A model generated the notes under the pieces. The model was given only the letters and a program-made list of their open reading frames with translations, was not told the DNA's origin and made no database searches. 30,517 bases of DNA from an uncultured Candidatus Saccharibacteria bacterium (GTDB taxonomy: Bacteria > Patescibacteriota > Minisyncoccia > UBA6257 > WO2-44-18), in NCBI GenBank assembly GCA_964432465.1, contig CAYSNI010000069.1, forward strand, positions 1-30,517, written 5' to 3'. Positions 16,387 through 26,927 of the stretch are shown piece after piece. Position 1 is the stretch's first letter, and each line of letters begins with the position of its first letter. The translations under genes were made by a program, and so were the position numbers.

Positions 16387-16519
16387 ATTGAGACCTTATC
16401 TGCTCGTACTCGCATTCCTGCTTGCCCGCCTATGGAGGGACTCCGGAATGCGAGTGGATTTTTTAATTAAGACTAATGCTAGTATTAGTGTATATTCTCT
16501 GGTATAATAGGGTCTCAAT
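16387..16519. repeat. 133-bp nested inverted-repeat element (MITE-like)
   Basis: Outer IR ATTGAGACCTTAT/ATAGGGTCTCAAT (12/13), inner IR ACTCGCATTCC/GGAATGCGAGT, 18-bp near-palindrome 16472-16489. Confidence 0.55.
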
Positions 16520-17494: not shown

Positions 17495-18081
17495 CGGTAC
17501 AGCTTATTCTTTCGGATGTACTCCGCCACGCTTTTCGCCAAAAATGCATCCGCCTTGCCGCCCGCGGCGATTATCTCTCTTATTTTCGTGCTCGAAATAT
17601 CGCGTGCGGATATATCACGCGGGATTACCGTGCTATGCGGCGGAAGCTCCTCCGGCATTTCAAATCCCGGCCGTTCGAGAATTATAAATTTTCCTGTTTC
17701 GAAAAGCTCCTTTCCGTTCACCCAGGTATTTTTAATGGTCGCGGCCGAATCTGCTCCCACGACGAAACAAAATTCGGAATCCGGATAATACGTTTCCAGT
17801 TCCTGCTTGGTGGCATAGGTTGTGGTAAGTCCCGGACGCTTTATTTCGAGATCCGACACGCTCACTGGAATTTTCGGTAACGGAAATAATTCGCGAACCA
17901 TTGCCCGGAGCATTTCCACGCGGTGCATACCGTCGGTTCCGACAACCTTGTCCCTGCGGTCAGCCGATGGCATCACCCATATTTCATCAGCCGAAAAGTT
18001 ATCGAGGACCAGTTCGATCGCTTTCGCGTGTCCGATATGGGGCGGATTGAAAGCGCCGCCGAAGATCACGATTTTTTCCAT
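17491..18081 (-). CDS. nadD: nicotinate-nucleotide adenylyltransferase
   Basis: FGGAFNPPHIGH, FVVGADS, ISSTKIR. Confidence 0.93.
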   Translation of the reverse strand: MEKIVIFGGAFNPPHIGHAKAIELVLDNFSADEIWVMPSADRRDKVVGTDGMHRVEMLRAMVRELFPLPKIPVSVSDLEIKRPGLTTTYATKQELETYYPDSEFCFVVGADSAATIKNTWVNGKELFETGKFIILERPGFEMPEELPPHSTVIPRDISARDISSTKIREIIAAGGKADAFLAKSVAEYIRKNKLYR

Positions 18082-18090
18082 ACAATAATA

Positions 18091-18114
18091 ATAGCGCGGT
18101 TTTACCCGCGCTAT
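18091..18114. terminator. hairpin between nadA and nadD
   Basis: ATAGCGCGG/CCGCGCTAT 9-bp stem; weak U tract. Confidence 0.45.
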
Positions 18115-18121
18115 AAAGTGG

Positions 18122-19336: not shown

Positions 19337-19354
19337 AGGCGGTTAAGCCTCTTT
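19333..19354 (-). terminator. intrinsic terminator after NDT-NUDIX gene
   Basis: AAAGAGGC/GCCTCTTT stem, T run on minus strand. Confidence 0.7.
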
Positions 19355-20506
19355 AAGCGCTGAAAGAATCATGCCGATCGTACTCCAATCCACAAGATCT
19401 TTCGCGAAGATCTCGCGGATCGTGCAGACCTGCGTATATACCCGTTCGCCGGTCGGATCGCTCATATCGGCGCCATGCACCTCGCCGACCTGACTCTTAA
19501 ACCAGTTCATTTCTTCATCGGTCAGCTCCGCGGAAAAAAGATTGCAACAGTGGGTCAGAAGGGTCGCGGCAAGCTGCCGGGGGCCATGAGACTTGAGACG
19601 CTCCTTGCCGATCACGAAACCGGTTTCCTCATGGACTTCTTCCACCGCCACGTCGAGCGGATCCACGGCGGGATTCGGATTCGATCCGGCGGGAAGCTCC
19701 CAGACGAAACATTCATTGTTGCGCGCCGAGCTACGGAACTCCCGTCCGATCACAACTTCGTAATCAAGCAGAGTCGGTCCCCGGCGATACAGCACCACCG
19801 CGGAAGTATCCAGACGACCGATCACCGGTTCGTTGGTCTTCATGCGACCTTCGCCGAAAATCCTAATCCGGGGATGAATCATCCATATATAGACGCGTTC
19901 CTTCCTGTCGCCGACACGGAACGTCGCTTTAAGTTCAACTCCTTCAAGGACATGGCCCGCACGATGCTGCGCCTGATACCAGGACTGGAACGCCTTCGTT
20001 CTCCAGACAAAAAGCGGCACCTGTCGGGCTCCGCCCGAACGATGTGAACCGTCACCGAGGAATCTCAGGGCAGCGTCGACCGTCCCTTCAAGCGTATTCG
20101 CCTGCAGGACAAATTCTTTGCCGGCACAATGCTTCATGTAGCCTGTCTTTGGCGCATCATCCGGACAGCCGAATACCATCCAGCCCGAATGCCACAGCCA
20201 GCCGAATTCGATATTAGTGGTGAACGCGGGCATCTTTTCAAGCTCGCGGGGAACCCAGAACAGCGCACAATCGGAATGATTAAACGCGCTATGTTCCCAC
20301 TCGATCTGGCCGTCCTCGCCGCACTGGGCGGAACCGGCCCGGTCTTCCGGGACAAACACCACGCCGTCATAGCCCCGCTCTTTCAGAATCTCCAGAGCAC
20401 GCGGCCGCCATGACCCGACATCGTTCCTGCGGGGCGTCGGCCCCGCCAAAAAAATAGACCGGCTGAACTGCTCCGGCATCGGCTCGCCCGCGTAGACCAT
20501 CTGCAT
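19343..20506 (-). CDS. nucleoside 2-deoxyribosyltransferase-like domain fused to NUDIX hydrolase
   Basis: N-term IFLAGPTPR, VFVPEDR, QIEWE, FWVPR, TTNIEFG; C-term WELPAGS..VAVEEVHEETGF; SD AAGGAGG. Confidence 0.85.
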   Translation of the reverse strand: MQMVYAGEPMPEQFSRSIFLAGPTPRRNDVGSWRPRALEILKERGYDGVVFVPEDRAGSAQCGEDGQIEWEHSAFNHSDCALFWVPRELEKMPAFTTNIEFGWLWHSGWMVFGCPDDAPKTGYMKHCAGKEFVLQANTLEGTVDAALRFLGDGSHRSGGARQVPLFVWRTKAFQSWYQAQHRAGHVLEGVELKATFRVGDRKERVYIWMIHPRIRIFGEGRMKTNEPVIGRLDTSAVVLYRRGPTLLDYEVVIGREFRSSARNNECFVWELPAGSNPNPAVDPLDVAVEEVHEETGFVIGKERLKSHGPRQLAATLLTHCCNLFSAELTDEEMNWFKSQVGEVHGADMSDPTGERVYTQVCTIREIFAKDLVDWSTIGMILSALKEA

Positions 20507-20535
20507 GCATTCCTCCTTCTCTTTCAGACTGAAAA

Positions 20536-20575
20536 GTTCTGGGCGTATTTTACCAGAAAAATCGGGAAATAAAAA
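20536..20575 (-). promoter_or_regulatory. internal promoter block B (extended -10 TGGTAAAAT) for NDT-NUDIX gene
   Basis: Near-copy of block A. Confidence 0.65.
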
Positions 20576-20601
20576 GGCCTTCCAACAATGTTGGAGGGCC
20601 T
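20575..20601 (-). terminator. intrinsic terminator after pncB
   Basis: AGGCCTTCCAACA/TGTTGGAGGGCCT stem, T run on minus strand. Confidence 0.7.
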
Positions 20602-20605
20602 GTGT

Positions 20606-21850
20606 TTAAACCGGGATCAAACCGATCACCTGCCGATAGCGGGTGACCTCGTGGAGGTCGCCCATCGCCTTGGCGGGGTCATCGCTGAGCTTCACCGTGG
20701 AACGTCCGTTGACACGCGACGCTTTCACGACGATCTCCGCGGTGGGAAGTCCGAGATCGTTGGTAAGGTTGGTACCGACACCGAACGTGTGTCCGAGTCT
20801 GCCCTGGAAATGCGCGTGGAGCGCCACCATCCGGGCGGGATCCAGCTTATCGCTGAACACTGTCAGTTTATCTTTCGGATTCTCGTCGTAGCGGCGATAC
20901 CAGTTGATCATCTTCTCGCCATAGCTGAATGGATCCCCGGAATCTTGCCGGGTCCCTTTCCAGAGCTTCGCGACATCCTGATTCGCCGCGCGCAGAAAGA
21001 AGTCGGTGGTAAAGGTATCGGTCAGCGCGATCGAAAGACCACGGCCGTACATACTCCACCAGCCGTTCAGAACTTCGCGCTGAGCCTCAATCAGCACATC
21101 TTCGCTCCGGGTATCGGGATGCGCCTTCGCAAACGCGAGCGCGGCGATGACCATCGGAAGTTCGTGCGCCGACGTACCCATAGGTATGAGATCAACGTCC
21201 TTCGCGAACAGCACATTGGACGTGCCGAGCAGGATACCGGGTAGCTCCTCCCTCATCACCTCAACGACGTACTGCTGCCACGCCCGGCTAAAACGCCGAC
21301 GAGTGCCGAAGTCGCTGAACGTGAGGAAAGGCTGATGCCGGAATACGCAGATCTTCTCAAGGAGATTTTGAACACCCCGCGCGAAGACCGCCTCCTGCTC
21401 GAAGCGGGACTTTTTCCGCAAGAGTGCCCGGGAATAAAGTTCGCAGATGATCGACATTGCCAGCGTTTCCCAATACATGACCTTCGGCCACGGACCGGTA
21501 AACTCCAGACGGTAATCGTCGCCCTCTCTGATCAGTTTGTAGGGAGGAAGTTCGAGATCCCGCAAGAACTGGAGATAATCATCCTGGAACATCTTGTCGC
21601 CGTATTCGTGCGTGCCCCGCAGATAATGATATTCGCTGTTTCTCAGTCTGAGCTTCATCACATGATCAAGCTCGCGTCTCAAATCCTCTTCCGAAAAATA
21701 CTGCGCGAAAGGGATCCGTGCGCGATTGATCAGACTGAAAGTGACTTCCACATCACGATAGCGCCGGAATACCAGCTGGCCCATCGTGAATTTGTAGAAA
21801 TCGGTATCGAGCAAAGAGTTGATGATCGGTTCGTCGGAAAGCAGTTTCAA
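20606..21850 (-). CDS. pncB: nicotinate phosphoribosyltransferase
   Basis: LLDTDFYKFTM, DFGTRRRFS, GTSNV, GTSAHE, RQDSGDP, FGVGTNLTND, VKLSD; TTG start overlapping pncA stop. Confidence 0.95.
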   Translation of the reverse strand: MKLLSDEPIINSLLDTDFYKFTMGQLVFRRYRDVEVTFSLINRARIPFAQYFSEEDLRRELDHVMKLRLRNSEYHYLRGTHEYGDKMFQDDYLQFLRDLELPPYKLIREGDDYRLEFTGPWPKVMYWETLAMSIICELYSRALLRKKSRFEQEAVFARGVQNLLEKICVFRHQPFLTFSDFGTRRRFSRAWQQYVVEVMREELPGILLGTSNVLFAKDVDLIPMGTSAHELPMVIAALAFAKAHPDTRSEDVLIEAQREVLNGWWSMYGRGLSIALTDTFTTDFFLRAANQDVAKLWKGTRQDSGDPFSYGEKMINWYRRYDENPKDKLTVFSDKLDPARMVALHAHFQGRLGHTFGVGTNLTNDLGLPTAEIVVKASRVNGRSTVKLSDDPAKAMGDLHEVTRYRQVIGLIPV

Positions 21851-22485
21851 GAAACGCCTCCTTCCAAGACTTCATCAGTGCTGGAAATTACCACGCCGGC
21901 GGTCTCCATTTCAACGAGTGCGTCTTCGCCGTCGCTGGGATTGATATTGACCGCGCGGCAGGCGTCTTCGAGTAGGATGGCCTGTTGGCCATACTTCACC
22001 GCGTCGAGCGCCGTCGCCTTCACGCAATGATCTGTCGCAAGGCCGCCGATGTACATCTTCCTCACTTTCAGCTGGACCAGGCGATCGTTGAGCGAGGTGC
22101 CGAAGTGATGACCATCGAAAGCCGAGTAGCCGTCATCTATCGTACCTTCACCCTTAGTGATGATGTACAGCCAGCGATATGCGCTGGCTCCGGGTACCTG
22201 CAGATCCCTATGAAACTCGGCTCCGCGAGTGTACTGCACCGCGTGCTCCGGCCATTTGCCGCCATACAACGCGAAATGCTTCGTCACCGGCGGATGCCAG
22301 TCCCTCGAGATCATGATCGCCCAGTTATTCTGCATGGCATGAAGGATCATGCGATTCAGCGGAGCCATCACCTGGTCGCCTTCCACGACCGCAAGCGAGC
22401 CGCCCGGGCAAAAACAGTTCTGCGGATCCACGATCATCAATGCCGTATCGGACTGAAAGACCAGCGCCGGCCCTGAATTGAACAT
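21847..22485 (-). CDS. pncA: nicotinamidase
   Basis: IVDPQNCF, RDWH, WPEH, TKG, YSAF, GLATDHCV; Asp-Lys-Cys triad and metal ligands present. Confidence 0.92.
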   Translation of the reverse strand: MFNSGPALVFQSDTALMIVDPQNCFCPGGSLAVVEGDQVMAPLNRMILHAMQNNWAIMISRDWHPPVTKHFALYGGKWPEHAVQYTRGAEFHRDLQVPGASAYRWLYIITKGEGTIDDGYSAFDGHHFGTSLNDRLVQLKVRKMYIGGLATDHCVKATALDAVKYGQQAILLEDACRAVNINPSDGEDALVEMETAGVVISSTDEVLEGGVS

Positions 22486-22494
22486 GCAGCCTCC

Positions 22495-23370
22495 TTAAAG
22501 GATCGTTGCCCCTTCGTACTGCCAATCGAACTTGAGCTTGCCGTCGGGGAAGAAGATAAGATTTCTCATCTCTTCCGCGTTCGGCTGTACCGTCAGGCAT
22601 TCGTTCAGGCAGAGATTCTGCCCAAAGAGGTCAAAGACCTCCGCGCCATGCGCGAGCACCCGAAGACGGCACCCTGAATTAGTGACGAATTCCCGTATCT
22701 CTTTTCTTTGTTCAACTTTGAGATGATGCTCATTCGTCCATTCCCAGGCCTCGCGGTTCGACATCACCACCGGTTTGTTCACCGGGGTAAATGTGAGCTG
22801 GTCCACCTGGTGCGTCTTCGCGAACGCCACAAGATTCTTCAGCTTTTCAGCACTATCCACGAATCCGTTTGCGCCGATGCATGTCAGACGGACTGAAAGC
22901 CCTATTTCGTGAAGTTTCTTGATCAGTTCCGGAAGGTCGATATATTCCTTCTTATAAGGAAGGTAGACTTCGCGATTCTTCTCCGGTTCATAATGCACGA
23001 TAGAAATCGCGATTGTCGTCATACCAAGATTGCACCAGCTCCTCAGATAAGGATCATATTTCTCCGACCGCTCCGCGAATTTGATCCCGTTCGTCTGGAT
23101 CTCAATCAGTGGAAATTCATATCTCCGCATCTCTTCAAGATATCGGGTGATCTGATCCGGAAACAGCGTCGGTTCACCTTTTCCCGTGAACATCGCCGTA
23201 ATCGCGTTCTGAGCCTTCGCCAACCTGCACGCGATATGAAATCGGTGCCAATTGACCGTCGGTTCCTCGAGTAGCACGCCTTGCGGCGGGGTCATCTTGG
23301 ATACACAAAACGGACACCTCGCGTTACACGCCTCGCTGCCCGCCAGAATGCTGAATGTCTCGACTTTCAA
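22495..23370 (-). CDS. radical SAM enzyme of unknown function
   Basis: CNARCPFC (CX3CX2C), GKGEPTL, QTNG; 291 aa, no SPASM Cys set; TTG start with SD GAGGAGG. Confidence 0.9.
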   Translation of the reverse strand: MKVETFSILAGSEACNARCPFCVSKMTPPQGVLLEEPTVNWHRFHIACRLAKAQNAITAMFTGKGEPTLFPDQITRYLEEMRRYEFPLIEIQTNGIKFAERSEKYDPYLRSWCNLGMTTIAISIVHYEPEKNREVYLPYKKEYIDLPELIKKLHEIGLSVRLTCIGANGFVDSAEKLKNLVAFAKTHQVDQLTFTPVNKPVVMSNREAWEWTNEHHLKVEQRKEIREFVTNSGCRLRVLAHGAEVFDLFGQNLCLNECLTVQPNAEEMRNLIFFPDGKLKFDWQYEGATIL

Positions 23371-23424: not shown

Positions 23425-24105
23425 TTAAAAGAATCTTTTCAACTCTATGGGCCTCTGCTCAACAAATACATAGAGCTGAGCAGGCCTGTGCTGGGCGCCG
23501 CCGAGCTTTTGACTCGTCGGCTTTATCAGTCCGAGCGCCACAAATTTCTTCCGAAAGTTTCTTTTATCGAGCTTCTTTCCCCAAATCGCTTCATAGGTTG
23601 CCTGGAGCTGACCAAGCGTGAACTTTTTAGGCAGGAGCGAAAAGACGGCGTTGGTATACTCCAACTTAGAACGTAAACGCCGGAGCGCATAGTTGACGAT
23701 CCTCTTGTGATCGAACGCAAGCAGCGGCAGCTTATTCACCGGGAGCAATGTCGGCGCCTGCAGATCCTTGGCGGATTCAAAGACAAGCTTCTCTCTGGGC
23801 ATCAGCGCGAAATAGCTCACCGAGACCGCCGGACCGCGGGGATCCCGTCCGGAGCTGTCGAACGTATACAGCTGCTCGATATACGCGTTCTTCACGCCGG
23901 TTTTGTCGGCAAGCACGCGAAGCGCGCCCTTCTCGGTCGTTTCGTTCTGAAAAAGAAAACCTCCCGGCAATGCCCACACGCCCTCAAACGGCGGGCGGGC
24001 GCGGCGGATCAGGAGCACTTTTAATTCGCCTTGATCGATCGTCAGAATTACGACGTCTACCGTCACGGCCGGAGAGAAGTAAAATTTGTCGGTATGTTTC
24101 TTCAT
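23425..24105 (-). CDS. nrtR: NrtR family transcriptional regulator (NUDIX-like + winged helix)
   Basis: VTVDVVI, WALPGGF, degenerate NUDIX box (RVLADK), EQLYTF..GRDPR, LAFDH, FTLGQLQ, DKRNFRKK, RPAQLY; start ATG 24105. Confidence 0.9.
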   Translation of the reverse strand: MKKHTDKFYFSPAVTVDVVILTIDQGELKVLLIRRARPPFEGVWALPGGFLFQNETTEKGALRVLADKTGVKNAYIEQLYTFDSSGRDPRGPAVSVSYFALMPREKLVFESAKDLQAPTLLPVNKLPLLAFDHKRIVNYALRRLRSKLEYTNAVFSLLPKKFTLGQLQATYEAIWGKKLDKRNFRKKFVALGLIKPTSQKLGGAQHRPAQLYVFVEQRPIELKRFF

Positions 24106-24109
24106 ATTA

Positions 24110-26056
24110 TTATTCGAGTTCTTTAAGCCAGGCATCCACGGCGACATCCGACGGCATGCGCCAATCGCCCCTCGGTGAAAGCGCTACCGACCCAACTTTT
24201 GGACCGTCCGACATTACCGAGCGCTTCCACTGGTTGCGGAAAAATCGCCCGACAAAAAGCCTCAACCATTTTTTAATTACCGCGCGGGGATATTTCTTTC
24301 CGAACGCCTGCTCCGCGAGAAACAGAATCTTTTTCGGCGCGCTCGCCCATCGCACGAAATGGTAGAGAAAAAAATCATGTAATTCATACGGGCCGATAAT
24401 ATCCTCGGTTTTCTGATCAATATCCTTTTTGCCCGCCCGCACAAGCTCCGGGGAGATCGGCGTCGCAATGATATCGGCAAGCACTTTCTTTGCCTTGCTG
24501 AAATCCTTTTGTGACCGCACCCACTGCACCAGATACTTCACCAGCGTCTTTGGAATGCCCGAATTCACGCAATAGTGCGAAATATGGTCACCGGTAAAGG
24601 TATTCCAGCCGAGTGCTATCTCCGAAAGATCACCCGTGCCTACCACGAGGCCGTTGATCTGGTTCGATTTATTCATAAGTACCAGCGTTCGATAGCGGGC
24701 CTGCACGTTTTCAAAGGTAATATCCTGCGTCTTTCCATTGTGTCCGATGTCTTTGAGATTCTGCGAGGCGCCTTCGGTAATATCAATAGTTTCCAGCGTC
24801 ACGCCCAGCGCTTCCGCAAGTTTGATCGCGTTGGACTTGGTACGCTTCGTAGTCGCAAATCCCGGCATGGTGTAGGCATGAATATTGTTACGAGGCAGAC
24901 CAAGTAATTCACAGGCCCGCACGGCTACCAGGAGCGCGAGCGTTGAATCCAGTCCGCCGGAAAGTCCGATGATCGGTTTTTCTTTATCCGCGTGCTCCAT
25001 GCGCTTCGCAAGTCCCGCCGCCTGAATCGCAAAGATTTCCTGCGCGCGCTTATCACGCTCGGATTCGTTGGAGGGTACAAAAGGATTCTGCGTGAGAGAA
25101 CGTTCCAGCTTCTCCGGGCTCGCGATGTCGGTATCAAATGAAATATTCCTGAACTCTTTCCTGGGCAACTCGTGCACGCCTTCCCCAAAGCTCGTCATAC
25201 GTTCCCGATCGGTCTTTATATGATGAAGGTCGAGATCGGCGTAGATGATCTGGCTTTCTCTGTCGAATCGCTCAGATTCTTTGAGAAGACCCCCGTTTTC
25301 CCCGATCAGGGCGTGACCGCTGAATACCACGTCAGTAGTGGATTCATGTACGCCACAGGACGCGTAGATGTAGCCAGCCACCGTACGGGCTGACTGCTGA
25401 GAAACCAGCTCGCGACGGTAATCCGCCTTCCCGATTAATTCGTTTGAAGCCGAAAGATTCGCGAGCACCGTCGCTCCCGCAACCGCCTTGAATGAACTGG
25501 GCGGCATCGGCATCCAAACGTCCTCGCAAATTTCCACACCAAGCGCGAATGCCGGCAGCTTTTCGGACTGAAAAATAAGATCCGCGCCGATCGGTACTTT
25601 CTTCCCGAGAATAGTTATTTCTTTCGCCAAAAGATCGCGCGAAGACGCGAACCACCGTTCCTCGTAAAATTCCTTGTATCCCGGGATGTAGGTCTTGGGC
25701 ACGAGACCAAGAATCTTCCCACCGGAAATTACCGCCGCCATATTGAATAATTTCCCCTCGCATGCGAGCGGGAGTCCCACTAATACCACCGCTTTTACGG
25801 TTTTGGAGGCATCCACGATCTCCTGTAAACTGATAAGAGATTCCTCCTGGAGCAGTTCCTGATGGAAAAGATCCCCGAGCGTATATCCAGTAATTGAAAG
25901 CTCAGGGAATACGATAAGTCCGGTCTGCTTCGCCGCCGCGACCTTTATCAGCTTAATGATCTCCTTCCCGTTCTCTTCCGGCTTCCCAAGCCAAAGCCTG
26001 GGTACCACCGCCGCTACCCTCATCAATCCAAATCTGGACAATTGGATAGTGTTCAT
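24110..26056 (-). CDS. nadE: glutamine-dependent NAD+ synthetase
   Basis: Nitrilase domain E-K-C (FPEL, VPK, EICED) plus SGGLDS, ENVQAR, GTGDLSE, ISPEL, IIGPYELHDFF. Confidence 0.96.
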   Translation of the reverse strand: MNTIQLSRFGLMRVAAVVPRLWLGKPEENGKEIIKLIKVAAAKQTGLIVFPELSITGYTLGDLFHQELLQEESLISLQEIVDASKTVKAVVLVGLPLACEGKLFNMAAVISGGKILGLVPKTYIPGYKEFYEERWFASSRDLLAKEITILGKKVPIGADLIFQSEKLPAFALGVEICEDVWMPMPPSSFKAVAGATVLANLSASNELIGKADYRRELVSQQSARTVAGYIYASCGVHESTTDVVFSGHALIGENGGLLKESERFDRESQIIYADLDLHHIKTDRERMTSFGEGVHELPRKEFRNISFDTDIASPEKLERSLTQNPFVPSNESERDKRAQEIFAIQAAGLAKRMEHADKEKPIIGLSGGLDSTLALLVAVRACELLGLPRNNIHAYTMPGFATTKRTKSNAIKLAEALGVTLETIDITEGASQNLKDIGHNGKTQDITFENVQARYRTLVLMNKSNQINGLVVGTGDLSEIALGWNTFTGDHISHYCVNSGIPKTLVKYLVQWVRSQKDFSKAKKVLADIIATPISPELVRAGKKDIDQKTEDIIGPYELHDFFLYHFVRWASAPKKILFLAEQAFGKKYPRAVIKKWLRLFVGRFFRNQWKRSVMSDGPKVGSVALSPRGDWRMPSDVAVDAWLKELE

Positions 26057-26065
26057 AATACACTA
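26047..26065. promoter_or_regulatory. candidate NrtR operator
   Basis: TAGTGT-TCATAAT-ACACTA, perfect 6-bp arms with GT-N7-AC core, overlapping the nadE ATG. Confidence 0.72.
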
Positions 26066-26094
26066 ACAGTAACGTATGATAAAAAAATCGTCAA
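26066..26094 (-). promoter_or_regulatory. promoter of nadE-nrtR operon
   Basis: TTGACG-17 nt-TACTGT, 9 nt before ATG; -35 lies inside the nadK CDS. Confidence 0.6.
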
Positions 26095-26927
26095 CCCCTT
26101 CCAGCGTCAATATCTTCTACCGTCCGGATAACCCGGCGGCAAAAGCCTGGGCGGAAAAGATCACGCTCTGGCTTCATAAGCACTATCCGAAAGTAACCAC
26201 GACCGAGAAAAGACCAGACGCGGTTATCGTCCTCGGCGGCGACGGTACCATTCTCGAAGCCGCCAGCCGCTATCAGCGTTCAAATCCCGTCATCCTCGGA
26301 CTAAACCTCGGCCATGTTGGATTCTTGGCGTCCGTCCGTGAAGAGGCGAAATTTATTAATGCACTGGCTAAATTTTTCTCCGGTAAATACTGGCTGGTGG
26401 ACAGGATGATGCTGCAGGCCAGCGTGTGGCGAAAAGGAAAGAATATTTTTAAAACAAATTCACTGAATGACGTCGCTATCCAGAATCCGATCGGTATGGT
26501 GGAGCTGGAAGCCAGCATCGAAGACCACCCCCTGCAATATATCCGTGGCACCGGCGTGCTCGTGGCTACCGCCACCGGCTCCACCGCGCATAATCTTTCC
26601 GCCCATGGCCCGATCGTGATGCCCAATATCGAATGCCTGATCCTGACCGAACTTTTTGATCACAGCATTCCCACTCCCAGTCTGATCATCGATAAAGACC
26701 GGATAATTTCAATGAAGATCCTGTTCTTCCGGAAACGCGGCATTCTTTCGGTCAGTAAGACCGGCAAACCGGCTGATCTTCTTCTGATATCGGGAGACAG
26801 CACCGTCTTCCCTCTTGAGATCGGCGATATCGTGAAGATTCGGCGCTCAAAAATGCTCGTCCGGTTCGCGGAATTGGAAAAGCACTATTTCTTTAAGAGC
26901 TTGCAGGAGAAGTTTTCGTTTCGGTAA
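26076..26927 (+). CDS. nadK: NAD kinase family protein
   Basis: LGGDGTIL, GLNLGHVGFL, LND, TATGSTAHNLSAHGP. Confidence 0.88.
   Translation: MIKKSSTPSSVNIFYRPDNPAAKAWAEKITLWLHKHYPKVTTTEKRPDAVIVLGGDGTILEAASRYQRSNPVILGLNLGHVGFLASVREEAKFINALAKFFSGKYWLVDRMMLQASVWRKGKNIFKTNSLNDVAIQNPIGMVELEASIEDHPLQYIRGTGVLVATATGSTAHNLSAHGPIVMPNIECLILTELFDHSIPTPSLIIDKDRIISMKILFFRKRGILSVSKTGKPADLLLISGDSTVFPLEIGDIVKIRRSKMLVRFAELEKHYFFKSLQEKFSFR

What the first reader, a model, noticed from the sequence alone, without database searches (positions are those of the whole stretch)
26035..26094. One GT-N7-AC palindrome positioned to control two back-to-back promoters in a 19-bp gap
Seen: only 19 nt separate the nadE and nadK start codons. 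TAGTGT-N7-ACACTA (26047-26065) covers the nadE ATG and abuts its -10 (TACTGT, with TTGACG 17 nt upstream inside nadK). A weaker nadK promoter (TGGACA 26035-26040, 18 nt, TACACT 26059-26064) has its -10 inside the right arm. Established: NrtR boxes are about 21-bp palindromes with a GT-N7-AC core and binding is relieved by ADP-ribose. Inference: one operator represses both directions, nadE mRNA is near-leaderless, and the operator is partly protein-coding.
Basis: partly seen in the sequence, partly recalled or inferred. Interest (0 to 1): 0.65.

Follow-up and report, generated by a model that had tools for sequence, protein, structure and literature searches.

The report
NrtR operator between nadK and nadE
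The palindrome is a genuine binding site of the known NAD-metabolism repressor NrtR, packed with two back-to-back promoters and the nadE start codon into about 60 bp of an ultra-small (Patescibacteria) bacterium; it is a compact, conserved example of a known kind of switch, not a new one.

Summary
TAGTGT-N7-ACACTA lies at 26047-26065. The nadE ATG (26056-26054) sits in its centre and the nadK ATG is at 26076, leaving a 19-nt gap.

The palindrome is not chance. It is the only such site in the window. In 166 loci fetched because they encode NrtR relatives it occurs 69 times exactly and 88 times with one mismatch, against 0.15 and 3.1 in shuffles. It lies in front of nadE, nrtR, pncA, pncB, nadA, nadD, pnuC and nadK.

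The whole module is conserved in the closest Patescibacteria relatives:
- All 12 loci with an orthologous nadK carry a box 2-40 nt from its estimated start.
- A TTGACn-16/17-TAnnnT promoter abuts the box on the nadE/nrtR side.
- T(G/A/T)GAC(A/T)-17/18-TACACT uses the nadK-proximal arm as the nadK -10.
- In four genomes the nadE ATG sits at box positions 10-12, and two of them have no alternative start.

One NrtR operator most likely represses both directions, nadE mRNA has a leader of about 0-3 nt, and one operator arm encodes Asn-Thr. Binding, the effector and the transcription start sites are untested; no RNA data exist.

Novelty is modest: a known regulator and motif in a new lineage, with nadK as a target and an unusually compact layout.

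The parts
26046..26066 (.). NrtR operator: 21-bp box A-TAGTGT-TCATAAT-ACACTA-A (12-base core arms at 26047-26052 and 26060-26065)
   Evidence: Perfect palindrome. 26.4 bits with a matrix built from 157 related sites, next best in the window 4.3 bits. Same arms 69 times exactly and 88 times with one mismatch in 166 NrtR loci, against 0.15 and 3.1 in shuffles.
26054..26056 (-). nadE start codon, at box positions 10-12 in nadE orientation
   Evidence: First start of the ORF. The N-terminus MNTI(Q/K/E)(L/K)S-x-FG(L/F) is shared with L081, L166 and L001. L001 and L166 have no alternative start upstream of the conserved FGF motif.
26066..26071 (-). Predicted nadE -10 (TACTGT), abutting the box. Predicted start site near 26059, giving a 3-nt leader
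   Evidence: A TAnnnT hexamer at box positions -5..0 (or within 2 nt of that) with TTGACn 16-17 nt upstream recurs in L001, L004, L006, L087, L163, L164, L165 and L166. L081 has the -10 but its contig ends before the -35. The start site is inferred.
26089..26094 (-). Predicted nadE -35 (TTGACG), inside nadK codons 5-7
   Evidence: The spacer is 17 nt. GTCAA on the nadK coding strand is kept at the same distance in the relatives.
26035..26040 (+). Predicted nadK -35 (TGGACA), inside nadE codons 6-8
   Evidence: Consensus scan, 9/12. Same position in the relatives: TGGACA in L081, TTGACA in L166 and L003, TAGACT in L001, TTGAAT in L087.
26059..26064 (+). Predicted nadK -10 (TACACT), which is the nadK-proximal arm of the box. 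Predicted start site near 26071, giving a 5-nt leader
   Evidence: The 17/18-nt spacing to the -35 is conserved in 5 relatives. The start site is inferred.
24110..26056 (-). nadE, glutamine-dependent NAD synthetase (648 aa), first gene of the repressed operon
   Evidence: Pfam CN_hydrolase + NAD_synthase.
23425..24105 (-). nrtR (226 aa from ATG 24105; the longest ORF starts at 24147), so the operon is self-regulated
   Evidence: Pfam NUDIX + NrtR_WHD. Homologues are 219-228 aa. PDB relatives are BtAraR 5bs6 (1e-39) and S. oneidensis NrtR 3gz5/3gz6 (3e-34). The Nudix signature is degenerate: R-V-L-A-D-K in place of RE-U-x-EE (read).
19343..23370 (-). Downstream operon genes: radical SAM, pncA, pncB and an NDT-like/Nudix gene. 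All carry AAGGAGG-type ribosome sites, and a terminator-like hairpin lies at 19354-19333
   Evidence: Gene calls and Pfam hits on the identical contig L082. Ribosome sites. Terminator scan.
26076..26927 (+). nadK, NAD kinase (283 aa), divergent target
   Evidence: Pfam NAD_kinase N and C domains. The N-terminus is colinear with relatives. Every orthologous nadK in the fetched loci has a box near its start.

Best explanation
The 21-bp palindrome at 26046-26066 is the operator of the NrtR repressor encoded 2 kb downstream in the same operon. It lies in the middle of a roughly 60-bp bidirectional control module (26035-26094).

nadE side: -35 TTGACG (inside nadK codons 5-7), 17 nt, -10 TACTGT, which abuts the box. 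Transcription would therefore start inside the box near 26059. The AUG that lies in the non-contacted centre of the operator would be 0-3 nt from the 5' end, with no Shine-Dalgarno sequence.

nadK side: -35 TGGACA (inside nadE codons 6-8), 18 nt, -10 TACACT, which is the nadK-proximal operator arm. Transcription would start near 26071, giving a leader of about 5 nt.

An NrtR dimer on the box would cover the nadE start site and the nadK -10 and spacer. It would so block RNA polymerase in both directions. That would co-repress NAD synthesis and salvage (nadE-nrtR-radical SAM-pncA-pncB-NDT/Nudix, including the repressor itself) together with NAD phosphorylation (nadK). Derepression is expected when an NAD-breakdown signal binds the catalytically dead Nudix domain; ADP-ribose is the signal known for family members.

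Because the two -10 hexamers are 1 bp apart on opposite strands, the two promoters should also exclude each other when derepressed.

What is shown and what is inferred:
- Shown: the sequence anatomy, the motif's association with nrtR and NAD genes, conservation of the promoter and box geometry, and the nadE start.
- Inferred: binding, repression, the effector, the start sites and the promoter competition.

Sub-confidences: operator identity about 0.95; repression of the nadE operon about 0.85; co-repression of nadK about 0.7; nadE leader of 5 nt or less about 0.65.
For: 1. Motif statistics. In 1.34 Mb of 166 nrtR-containing loci there are 69 exact and 88 one-mismatch boxes, against 0.15 and 3.1 in shuffles. 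108 of 166 loci have at least one.
2. Target genes. Boxes precede nadE, nrtR, pncA, pncB, nadA, nadD, pnuC and nadK.
3. Motif form. The symmetrised matrix is W-TAGTGT-N7-ACACTA-W, 21 bp with a GT-N7-AC core, as published for NrtR. The same paper shows ADP-ribose relieving binding of two family members (PMC2330246).
4. Regulator in cis. nrtR has NUDIX + NrtR_WHD domains and is related to solved NrtR/AraR structures.
5. Module conservation. nadK, box and nadE or nrtR are arranged this way in L081, L166, L163, L164, L165, L001, L003, L004, L006, L085 and L087.
6. Invariant block. The box is the longest invariant block in the alignment of the four closest modules.
7. Promoter geometry is conserved on both sides.
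8. The nadE start lies inside the box.
9. Ribosome sites. In the window AAGGAGG-type sites occur mainly on internal operon genes. Several first genes have TATAAT-like hexamers 5-14 nt before the ATG. This fits short or absent leaders as a habit of this genome.
10. Precedent. A single NrtR palindrome lies between divergent nrtR and nadABC in mycobacteria (PMC6800001).
Against: - There is no experimental datum for this protein or site.
- No RNA run holds the locus or L001, so all start sites are predicted.
- The nadE -10 TACTGT matches TATAAT at only 3 of 6 positions, and the consensus scan did not list it. That scan instead listed TTATCA-16-TATTAT inside the box, which would put the start site downstream of the ATG.
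- The nadK promoter differs in some relatives: L006 uses TAATAT at box positions 18-23, L004 and L163 differ again, and L164/L165 have only weak candidates.
- A histogram of -10-to-start distances over relatives is noisy and does not prove leaderless expression.
- The loci were chosen because they contain nrtR, so the motif-nrtR association has no nrtR-free control.
Confidence: 0.65

Rival explanations
1. The box is an NrtR operator, but effectively only for the nadE operon. nadK would be expressed largely constitutively, for example because its weak promoter is rarely occupied anyway, or because NrtR occupancy interferes little with it.
For: The nadK promoter elements are weaker and less uniform among relatives than the nadE-side promoter. 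nadK is not mentioned at all in the founding NrtR regulon paper (0 occurrences).
Against: The gap is 19 nt, so every possible nadK core promoter overlaps the box (sequence geometry). All 12 orthologous nadK genes in the fetched loci have a box 2-40 nt from their estimated start, even when the gene on the other side is different.
Confidence: 0.15
2. nadE really starts downstream (TTG codon 6 at 26041 or ATG codon 12 at 26023). It would be transcribed from the TTATCA-16-TATTAT promoter whose -10 lies in the box spacer. The operator would then be non-coding and the mRNA would have a leader of about 7-25 nt.
For: The consensus scan lists TTATCA-16-TATTAT at 9/12. WIN and L081 have TTG at codon 6. 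In L006 and L085 a TATAAT in the box spacer is the best -10 or a good one.
Against: Met12 is excluded, because the conserved S-x-FG(L/F) lies upstream of it and L081 has CTG there. L001 (AAG) and L166 (CTG) have no start at codon 6, yet keep ATG-AAC-ACT-AT in the box. The -10 abutting the box, with its 17-nt-spaced TTGACn, is the feature conserved across relatives. There is no Shine-Dalgarno sequence before either alternative start.
Confidence: 0.1
3. NrtR acts differently on the two sides. It would repress nadE but activate or tune nadK by binding within the nadK 18-nt spacer, in the manner of MerR-type spacer binders.
For: The box occupies the nadK spacer and -10, and the spacer is a suboptimal 18 nt.
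Against: All characterised NrtR proteins are repressors (PMC2330246 and PMC6800001). The box covers the -10 hexamer itself, which favours occlusion.
Confidence: 0.05
4. The palindrome is a chance sequence or a non-regulatory structure such as a hairpin.
For: None beyond its short 6-bp arms.
Against: There are 69 exact copies in related loci against 0.15 expected. It is the only site in the window. It is the invariant block in the alignment of relatives.
Confidence: 0.01

Closest known systems
NrtR operators of NAD regulons (Rodionov et al. 2008, PMC2330246; Synechocystis Slr1690 and Shewanella oneidensis SO1979 validated by gel shift; structures 3gz5/3gz6)
   Same: A 21-bp palindrome with a GT-N7-AC core. 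It lies next to a Nudix + winged-helix regulator gene and overlaps the promoters of nadE, pncAB and other NAD genes. The operon is self-regulated. The regulator's Nudix signature is degenerate.
   Different: The lineage (Patescibacteria) is not covered by that work or by any paper found here. nadK as a target is not mentioned there. The start codon of the target gene lies in the operator centre. Binding and effector are untested for this protein.
Mycobacterium smegmatis NrtR: single palindrome between divergent nrtR and nadA/B/C (PMC6800001)
   Same: One NrtR site in a divergent intergenic region controls both the regulator and an NAD operon.
   Different: The motif is different (GTTTTCGA-N7-TCGAAAAC). 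Here the regulator is in the same operon as nadE and the divergent partner is nadK. The gap is only 19 nt and both -35 elements lie in coding sequence.
Bacterial bidirectional promoters with shared or adjacent -10 elements, for example E. coli acrR/acrAB with the AcrR repressor and bioA/bioB (Warman et al., PMC12825309)
   Same: Divergent start sites a few bp apart (10, 18 and 23 bp are the common spacings). One polymerase binding event excludes the other. At acrA/acrR the paper describes AcrR as a repressor of both genes.
   Different: Here the predicted start-site spacing is about 12 bp and is not measured. The -10 hexamers are adjacent (1 bp apart) rather than shared. The organism is uncultured.
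Leaderless or very short-leader mRNAs (for example in mycobacteria, PMC3898074 and PMC4633059)
   Same: No Shine-Dalgarno sequence, and a TAnnnT hexamer a few nt upstream of the start codon.
   Different: 9 nt separate the -10 from the ATG, so a 2-3-nt leader is more likely than a strictly leaderless mRNA. There is no RNA evidence here.

Membership tests
NrtR operator (NrtR box) | About 21-bp palindrome with a conserved GT-N7-AC core | tested here: met
   A-TAGTGT-N7-ACACTA-A at 26046-26066. The matrix from 157 related sites shows W-TAGTGT-N7-ACACTA-W. The definition comes from PMC2330246.
NrtR operator (NrtR box) | Linked gene for a Nudix + C-terminal winged-helix NrtR regulator | tested here: met
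   23425..24105 (-) has Pfam NUDIX 6e-13 and NrtR_WHD 6e-24. PDB relatives are 5bs6 and 3gz5.
NrtR operator (NrtR box) | Site lies in the promoter region of NAD-metabolism genes, overlapping promoter elements or between the promoter and the start | tested here: met
   It lies between nadE and nadK and overlaps the predicted -10 and start-site regions. Related boxes precede nadE, nrtR, pncA, pncB, nadA, nadD, pnuC and nadK.
NrtR operator (NrtR box) | Site conserved at orthologous positions in related genomes | tested here: met
   An exact box lies at the nadK/nadE or nadK/nrtR junction in 11 relatives. It is the invariant block in alignment A2.
NrtR operator (NrtR box) | Specific binding by the cognate NrtR protein | not testable with these tools
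   Needs a gel shift or footprint with purified protein.
NrtR operator (NrtR box) | Binding relieved by ADP-ribose or a related NAD metabolite | not testable with these tools
   Known for Synechocystis and Shewanella NrtR (PMC2330246). Here only the degenerate Nudix signature (RVLADK) was read from the sequence.
Bidirectional promoter (adjacent or shared -10 elements) | Divergent start sites about 10-23 bp apart, either side of or within the -10 region | tested here: inconclusive
   The predicted start sites, about 26059 (-) and about 26071 (+), are 12 bp apart, with the -10 hexamers at 26066-26071 (-) and 26059-26064 (+). These are predictions only.
Leaderless / near-leaderless mRNA | 5' end of the mRNA within 0-5 nt of the start codon | not testable with these tools
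   No RNA runs hold the locus or L001.
Leaderless / near-leaderless mRNA | No Shine-Dalgarno sequence, and a -10 hexamer a few nt upstream of the start codon | tested here: met
   There is no GGAG, GAGG or AGGA before nadE or nadK, whereas internal operon genes have AAGGAGG. TACTGT ends 9 nt before the nadE ATG. The same 9-nt spacing occurs in L166, L081, L013, L120 and L137.

The most novel reading that the evidence does not exclude
The roughly 60-bp cassette would be a selected, reusable design. Its parts are -35, 17 nt, a -10 abutting the NrtR box, and the target's ATG at box positions 10-12, with each gene's -35 written into the first 5-8 codons of its divergent partner. It is shared across Patescibacteria: it recurs before nadE, and before nrtR in L013, L120 and L137. 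A box with a central ATG also precedes pncB in L040, an Acidobacteriota contig. The same box also occurs in DPANN archaea. In this reading, NrtR and mutually exclusive polymerase binding at the two adjacent -10 elements would together set the ratio of NAD synthesis (nadE operon) to NADP synthesis (nadK), using leaderless translation.
Probability: 0.3. Interest if true: 0.55.

Novelty: new member of a known kind. Interest (0 to 1): 0.38.

Why it matters
Gene regulation in Patescibacteria (CPR) is almost unstudied, and the organisms are mostly uncultured. This locus offers a concrete regulator-operator pair that can be tested in vitro, with both promoters and a start codon within 60 bp. It suggests that NAD kinase belongs to the NrtR regulon in this clade, so NAD and NADP supply would be co-regulated. 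It also shows how genome streamlining can place promoter elements and an operator arm inside coding sequence. It does not reveal a new mechanism: the regulator, the motif and control of divergent genes by one operator are all known.

Tried and rejected
Only the 30.5-kb window could be scanned for further boxes, and none was found.
- First genome-contig scan with the single NrtR protein found nothing. The alignment-based scan worked.
- RNA evidence for start sites: only DNA metagenome runs hold the locus. No RNA runs were found for the window or for L001.
- Met12 (ATG 26023) as the nadE start was considered and rejected. TTG codon 6 was considered and judged unlikely.
- A histogram of -10-to-start distances over ORFs of 17 related loci was too noisy to demonstrate leaderless expression.
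- The supplement of Rodionov 2008 is not held, so I could not check from the paper that the published cyanobacterial logo equals TAGTGT-N7-ACACTA. Cyanobacterial loci in my own set do carry this box (L057, L064, L077).
- Literature searches found no paper linking NrtR with NAD kinase as a target or with Patescibacteria. Nothing useful was found on leaderless mRNAs in CPR.
Full report
**1. Observation**

The sequence is exactly as described.
- TAGTGT (26047-26052), TCATAAT, ACACTA (26060-26065) form a perfect 6+7+6 palindrome.
- The longest nadE ORF (24110..26056, minus strand) starts at the ATG 26056-26054. That is box positions 10-12 read in nadE orientation.
- nadK (26076..26927, plus strand) starts 19 nt away.
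- Pfam confirms the genes. NadE has CN_hydrolase + NAD_synthase. NadK has both NAD-kinase domains. The gene after nadE is an NrtR, with NUDIX 6e-13 and NrtR_WHD 6e-24.
- NrtR homologues are 219-228 aa. nrtR therefore probably starts at ATG 24105, 4 nt after the nadE stop.
- The closest named homologues come from Candidatus Harrisonbacteria, Yanofskybacteria and Paceibacterota. The organism is thus a Patescibacteria (CPR) bacterium.

**2. More than chance**

There is a single zero-mismatch match in the window.

I fetched 80 loci from species genomes and 80 from metagenomes that encode NrtR relatives. I added six from exact-protein look-ups. Across 166 loci and 1.34 Mb:
- The 12 arm bases occur 69 times exactly and 88 times with one mismatch. 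Shuffles give 0.15 and 3.1.
- 108 loci have at least one such site.
- The loci come from Patescibacteria, Chloroflexota, Acidobacteriota, Cyanobacteria, Planctomycetota and DPANN archaea.
- The boxes sit in front of nadE, nrtR, pncA, pncB, nadA, nadD, pnuC and nadK.

The symmetrised matrix is W-TAGTGT-N7-ACACTA-W, with an A/T-rich, otherwise free spacer. This is the 21-bp palindrome with a GT-N7-AC core that Rodionov et al. defined for NrtR (PMC2330246). With that matrix the window has one site, at 26.4 bits; the next best position scores 4.3.

**3. The nadE start codon**

- Met12 (ATG 26023) is excluded. Homologues conserve S-x-F-G-(F/L)-(L/I/M)-(R/K)-V-A-A, which begins upstream of it, and the 75%-identical relative L081 has CTG there.
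- TTG at codon 6 exists in the window and in L081. But L001 has AAG and L166 has CTG at that codon, and both keep ATG-AAC-ACT-AT inside the box.
- So in four genomes (window, L081, L166, L001) NadE begins Met-Asn-Thr-Ile, with Asn-Thr encoded by the ACACTA arm.
- The first 6-20 residues of NadE vary in length and sequence among homologues. This explains why an operator arm is tolerated there.
- In other relatives the ATG has a different register. It begins at the last base of the box in L006 and L085. It lies 2 nt after the box in L164/L165, which keep an in-frame TTG at box position 10. It lies 5-17 nt after the box in L163, L007, L009 and L011.

**4. Promoters**

nadE/nrtR side. Relatives show a very regular arrangement: TTGAC(A/T/G), then 16-17 nt, then a TAnnnT hexamer that abuts the box or sits within 2 nt of it.

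| Locus | -35, spacer, -10 |
|---|---|
| window | TTGACG-17-TACTGT |
| L166 | TTGACA-17-TACTCT |
| L001 | TTGACT-17-TACATT |
| L006 | TTGACA-17-TAATAT |
| L004 | TTGACT-16-TATACT |
| L087 | TTGACG-17-TAATAT |
| L163 | TTGACG-17-TAGAAT |
| L164/L165 | TTGACT-16-TATAGT |
| L081 | TACAGT (contig ends before the -35) |

- A 5/6 or 6/6 match to TTGACA at a fixed distance in nine loci cannot be chance. The probability is about 0.014 per locus by my estimate.
- In the window the -35 lies in nadK codons 5-7. The relatives keep GTCAA on the nadK coding strand at the same distance.
- With the usual 7-nt distance, transcription starts at about 26059, which is box position 7. That gives a 3-nt leader and no Shine-Dalgarno sequence.
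- The same design (TTGACA-17-TATACT, then the box with ATG at positions 10-12) precedes nrtR in L120 and L137. L013 has TATACT abutting the box and the same ATG position. A box with a central ATG also precedes pncB in L040.

nadK side.
- It recurs as TGGACA-18-TACACT (L081), TTGACA-18-TACACT (L166), TTGACA-17-TACACT (L003), TAGACT-18-TACACT (L001) and TTGAAT-17-TACACT (L087).
- L006 uses TTGACA-17-TAATAT, shifted by 5 nt. L004, L085 and L163 have other candidates, and L164/L165 have only weak ones.
- In most relatives the nadK -10 is therefore the nadK-proximal operator arm, and its -35 lies in nadE codons 6-8.
- The predicted start site is about 26071, giving a 5-nt leader.

General habit of the genome. 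In the window, strong AAGGAGG sites occur mainly on internal operon genes: radical SAM, pncA, pncB, NDT/Nudix and nadA. Several first genes have TATAAT-like hexamers 5-14 nt before the ATG. This fits short or absent leaders. A broader histogram over relatives was too noisy to prove it.

**5. nadK as a target**

- With a 19-nt gap, any nadK core promoter must overlap the box.
- All 12 loci with an orthologous nadK (at least 50% identity; one is a second assembly of this organism) have a box 2-40 nt from the estimated nadK start. Eleven are exact and one has two mismatches.
- This holds whether the opposite gene is nadE, nrtR (L003, L004) or a methyltransferase (L087).
- Caveat: these loci were selected for containing nrtR.
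- nadK is not mentioned in the 2008 regulon paper. No paper in the library links NrtR with NAD kinase as a target.

**6. Mechanism**

An NrtR dimer on 26046-26066 would cover the nadE start site and the nadK -10 and spacer. It would so exclude RNA polymerase from both promoters.
- The repressed unit on the minus strand is probably nadE-nrtR-radical SAM-pncA-pncB-NDT/Nudix. It ends at a good terminator-like hairpin at 19354-19333.
- nadA and nadD may have their own signals.
- The Nudix signature of this NrtR reads R-V-L-A-D-K instead of RE-U-x-EE. The domain is therefore most likely a sensor, as in the characterised members whose binding is weakened by ADP-ribose (PMC2330246).
- The two -10 hexamers (26059-26064 on the plus strand, 26066-26071 on the minus strand) are 1 bp apart. 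Polymerase binding in one direction should therefore exclude the other, as at E. coli bidirectional promoters (PMC12825309).
- Binding, effector, start sites and competition are all inferences.

**7. Comparison and novelty**

- The site meets every sequence-level criterion of an NrtR operator. The two biochemical criteria cannot be tested here.
- One NrtR palindrome serving divergent units is already known in mycobacteria (PMC6800001).
- New here are the lineage (no paper found), nadK as a target, and the extreme compaction: the start codon in the operator centre and both -35 elements in the partner's coding sequence.
- Earlier notes of this same scan report the same TAGTGT-N7-ACACTA operator in other Parcubacteria and in a Woesearchaeota contig. 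They agree with my results but are not independent evidence.
- I classify this as a new member of a known kind, with moderate-to-low interest.

**8. Limits**

No genome-wide regulon scan and no nrtR-free control could be run.
- No RNA data exist for this or related loci.

Noticed in passing
L120:1001-1019, L137:627-645, L013:5989-6007, L060:155-173, L040:2442-2460: A -10 hexamer abutting an NrtR box whose central ATG (positions 10-12) opens the gene recurs before nrtR in four other lineages: TATACT in L013, L120 and L137, and TATGCT in L060. L120 and L137 also have a consensus TTGACA 17 nt upstream. In L040 a box with a central ATG opens pncB, but no such promoter is evident. The design may be reusable rather than a one-off.
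   Followed up: partly
L010, L015, L017, L048 (contigs labelled Woesearchaeota, Pacearchaeota and Nanobdellati): DPANN archaeal contigs encode NrtR relatives and carry the identical TAGTGT-N7-ACACTA box before nadA and other genes. In L010 the box sits 4 nt after a TTTATATATA stretch that looks like an archaeal TATA box. This suggests a bacterial-type NAD regulator shared between CPR bacteria and DPANN archaea.
   Followed up: partly
window 18081-18117: After nadA there is a 9-bp-stem hairpin (18114-18091) whose 3' half and tail contain TATTAT. That hexamer ends 6 nt before the nadD ATG (18081). nadD may therefore have its own leaderless-type promoter without an NrtR box. A second terminator-like hairpin (19354-19333) follows the NDT/Nudix gene.
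   Followed up: partly
window 16486-16508: An isolated TAGTGT half-site (no ACACTA partner; -3.3 bits with the matrix) lies just upstream of TGGTATAAT before obg. It is probably chance.
   Followed up: no
window 24103-24147: The longest nrtR ORF (ATG 24147) overlaps nadE by 38 nt. Homologue lengths (219-228 aa) point to ATG 24105, 4 nt after the nadE stop and without a Shine-Dalgarno sequence. This suggests termination-reinitiation coupling.
   Followed up: partly
L098:1316 and 6745, L047:2297 and 6693, L011:7788, L033:11757, L063:5661, L162:2961 (most labelled Saccharibacteria): In these boxes, most from Saccharibacteria-labelled loci, the spacer reads TGACAAT or TGACTTA, so TTGACA is formed across the left arm and the spacer. 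There the operator overlaps a -35 instead of a -10 or start site, often with a second box about 40 bp downstream.
   Followed up: no
L163:8136-8666 and L163:5930-6880; L083:5650-6642; L087:3000-3956: SAM-dependent methyltransferase genes lie directly at NrtR boxes in L083 and L087. In L163 a methyltransferase and an ADP-ribosylglycohydrolase gene lie in the NAD gene block near nrtR. They may be extra regulon members.
   Followed up: no
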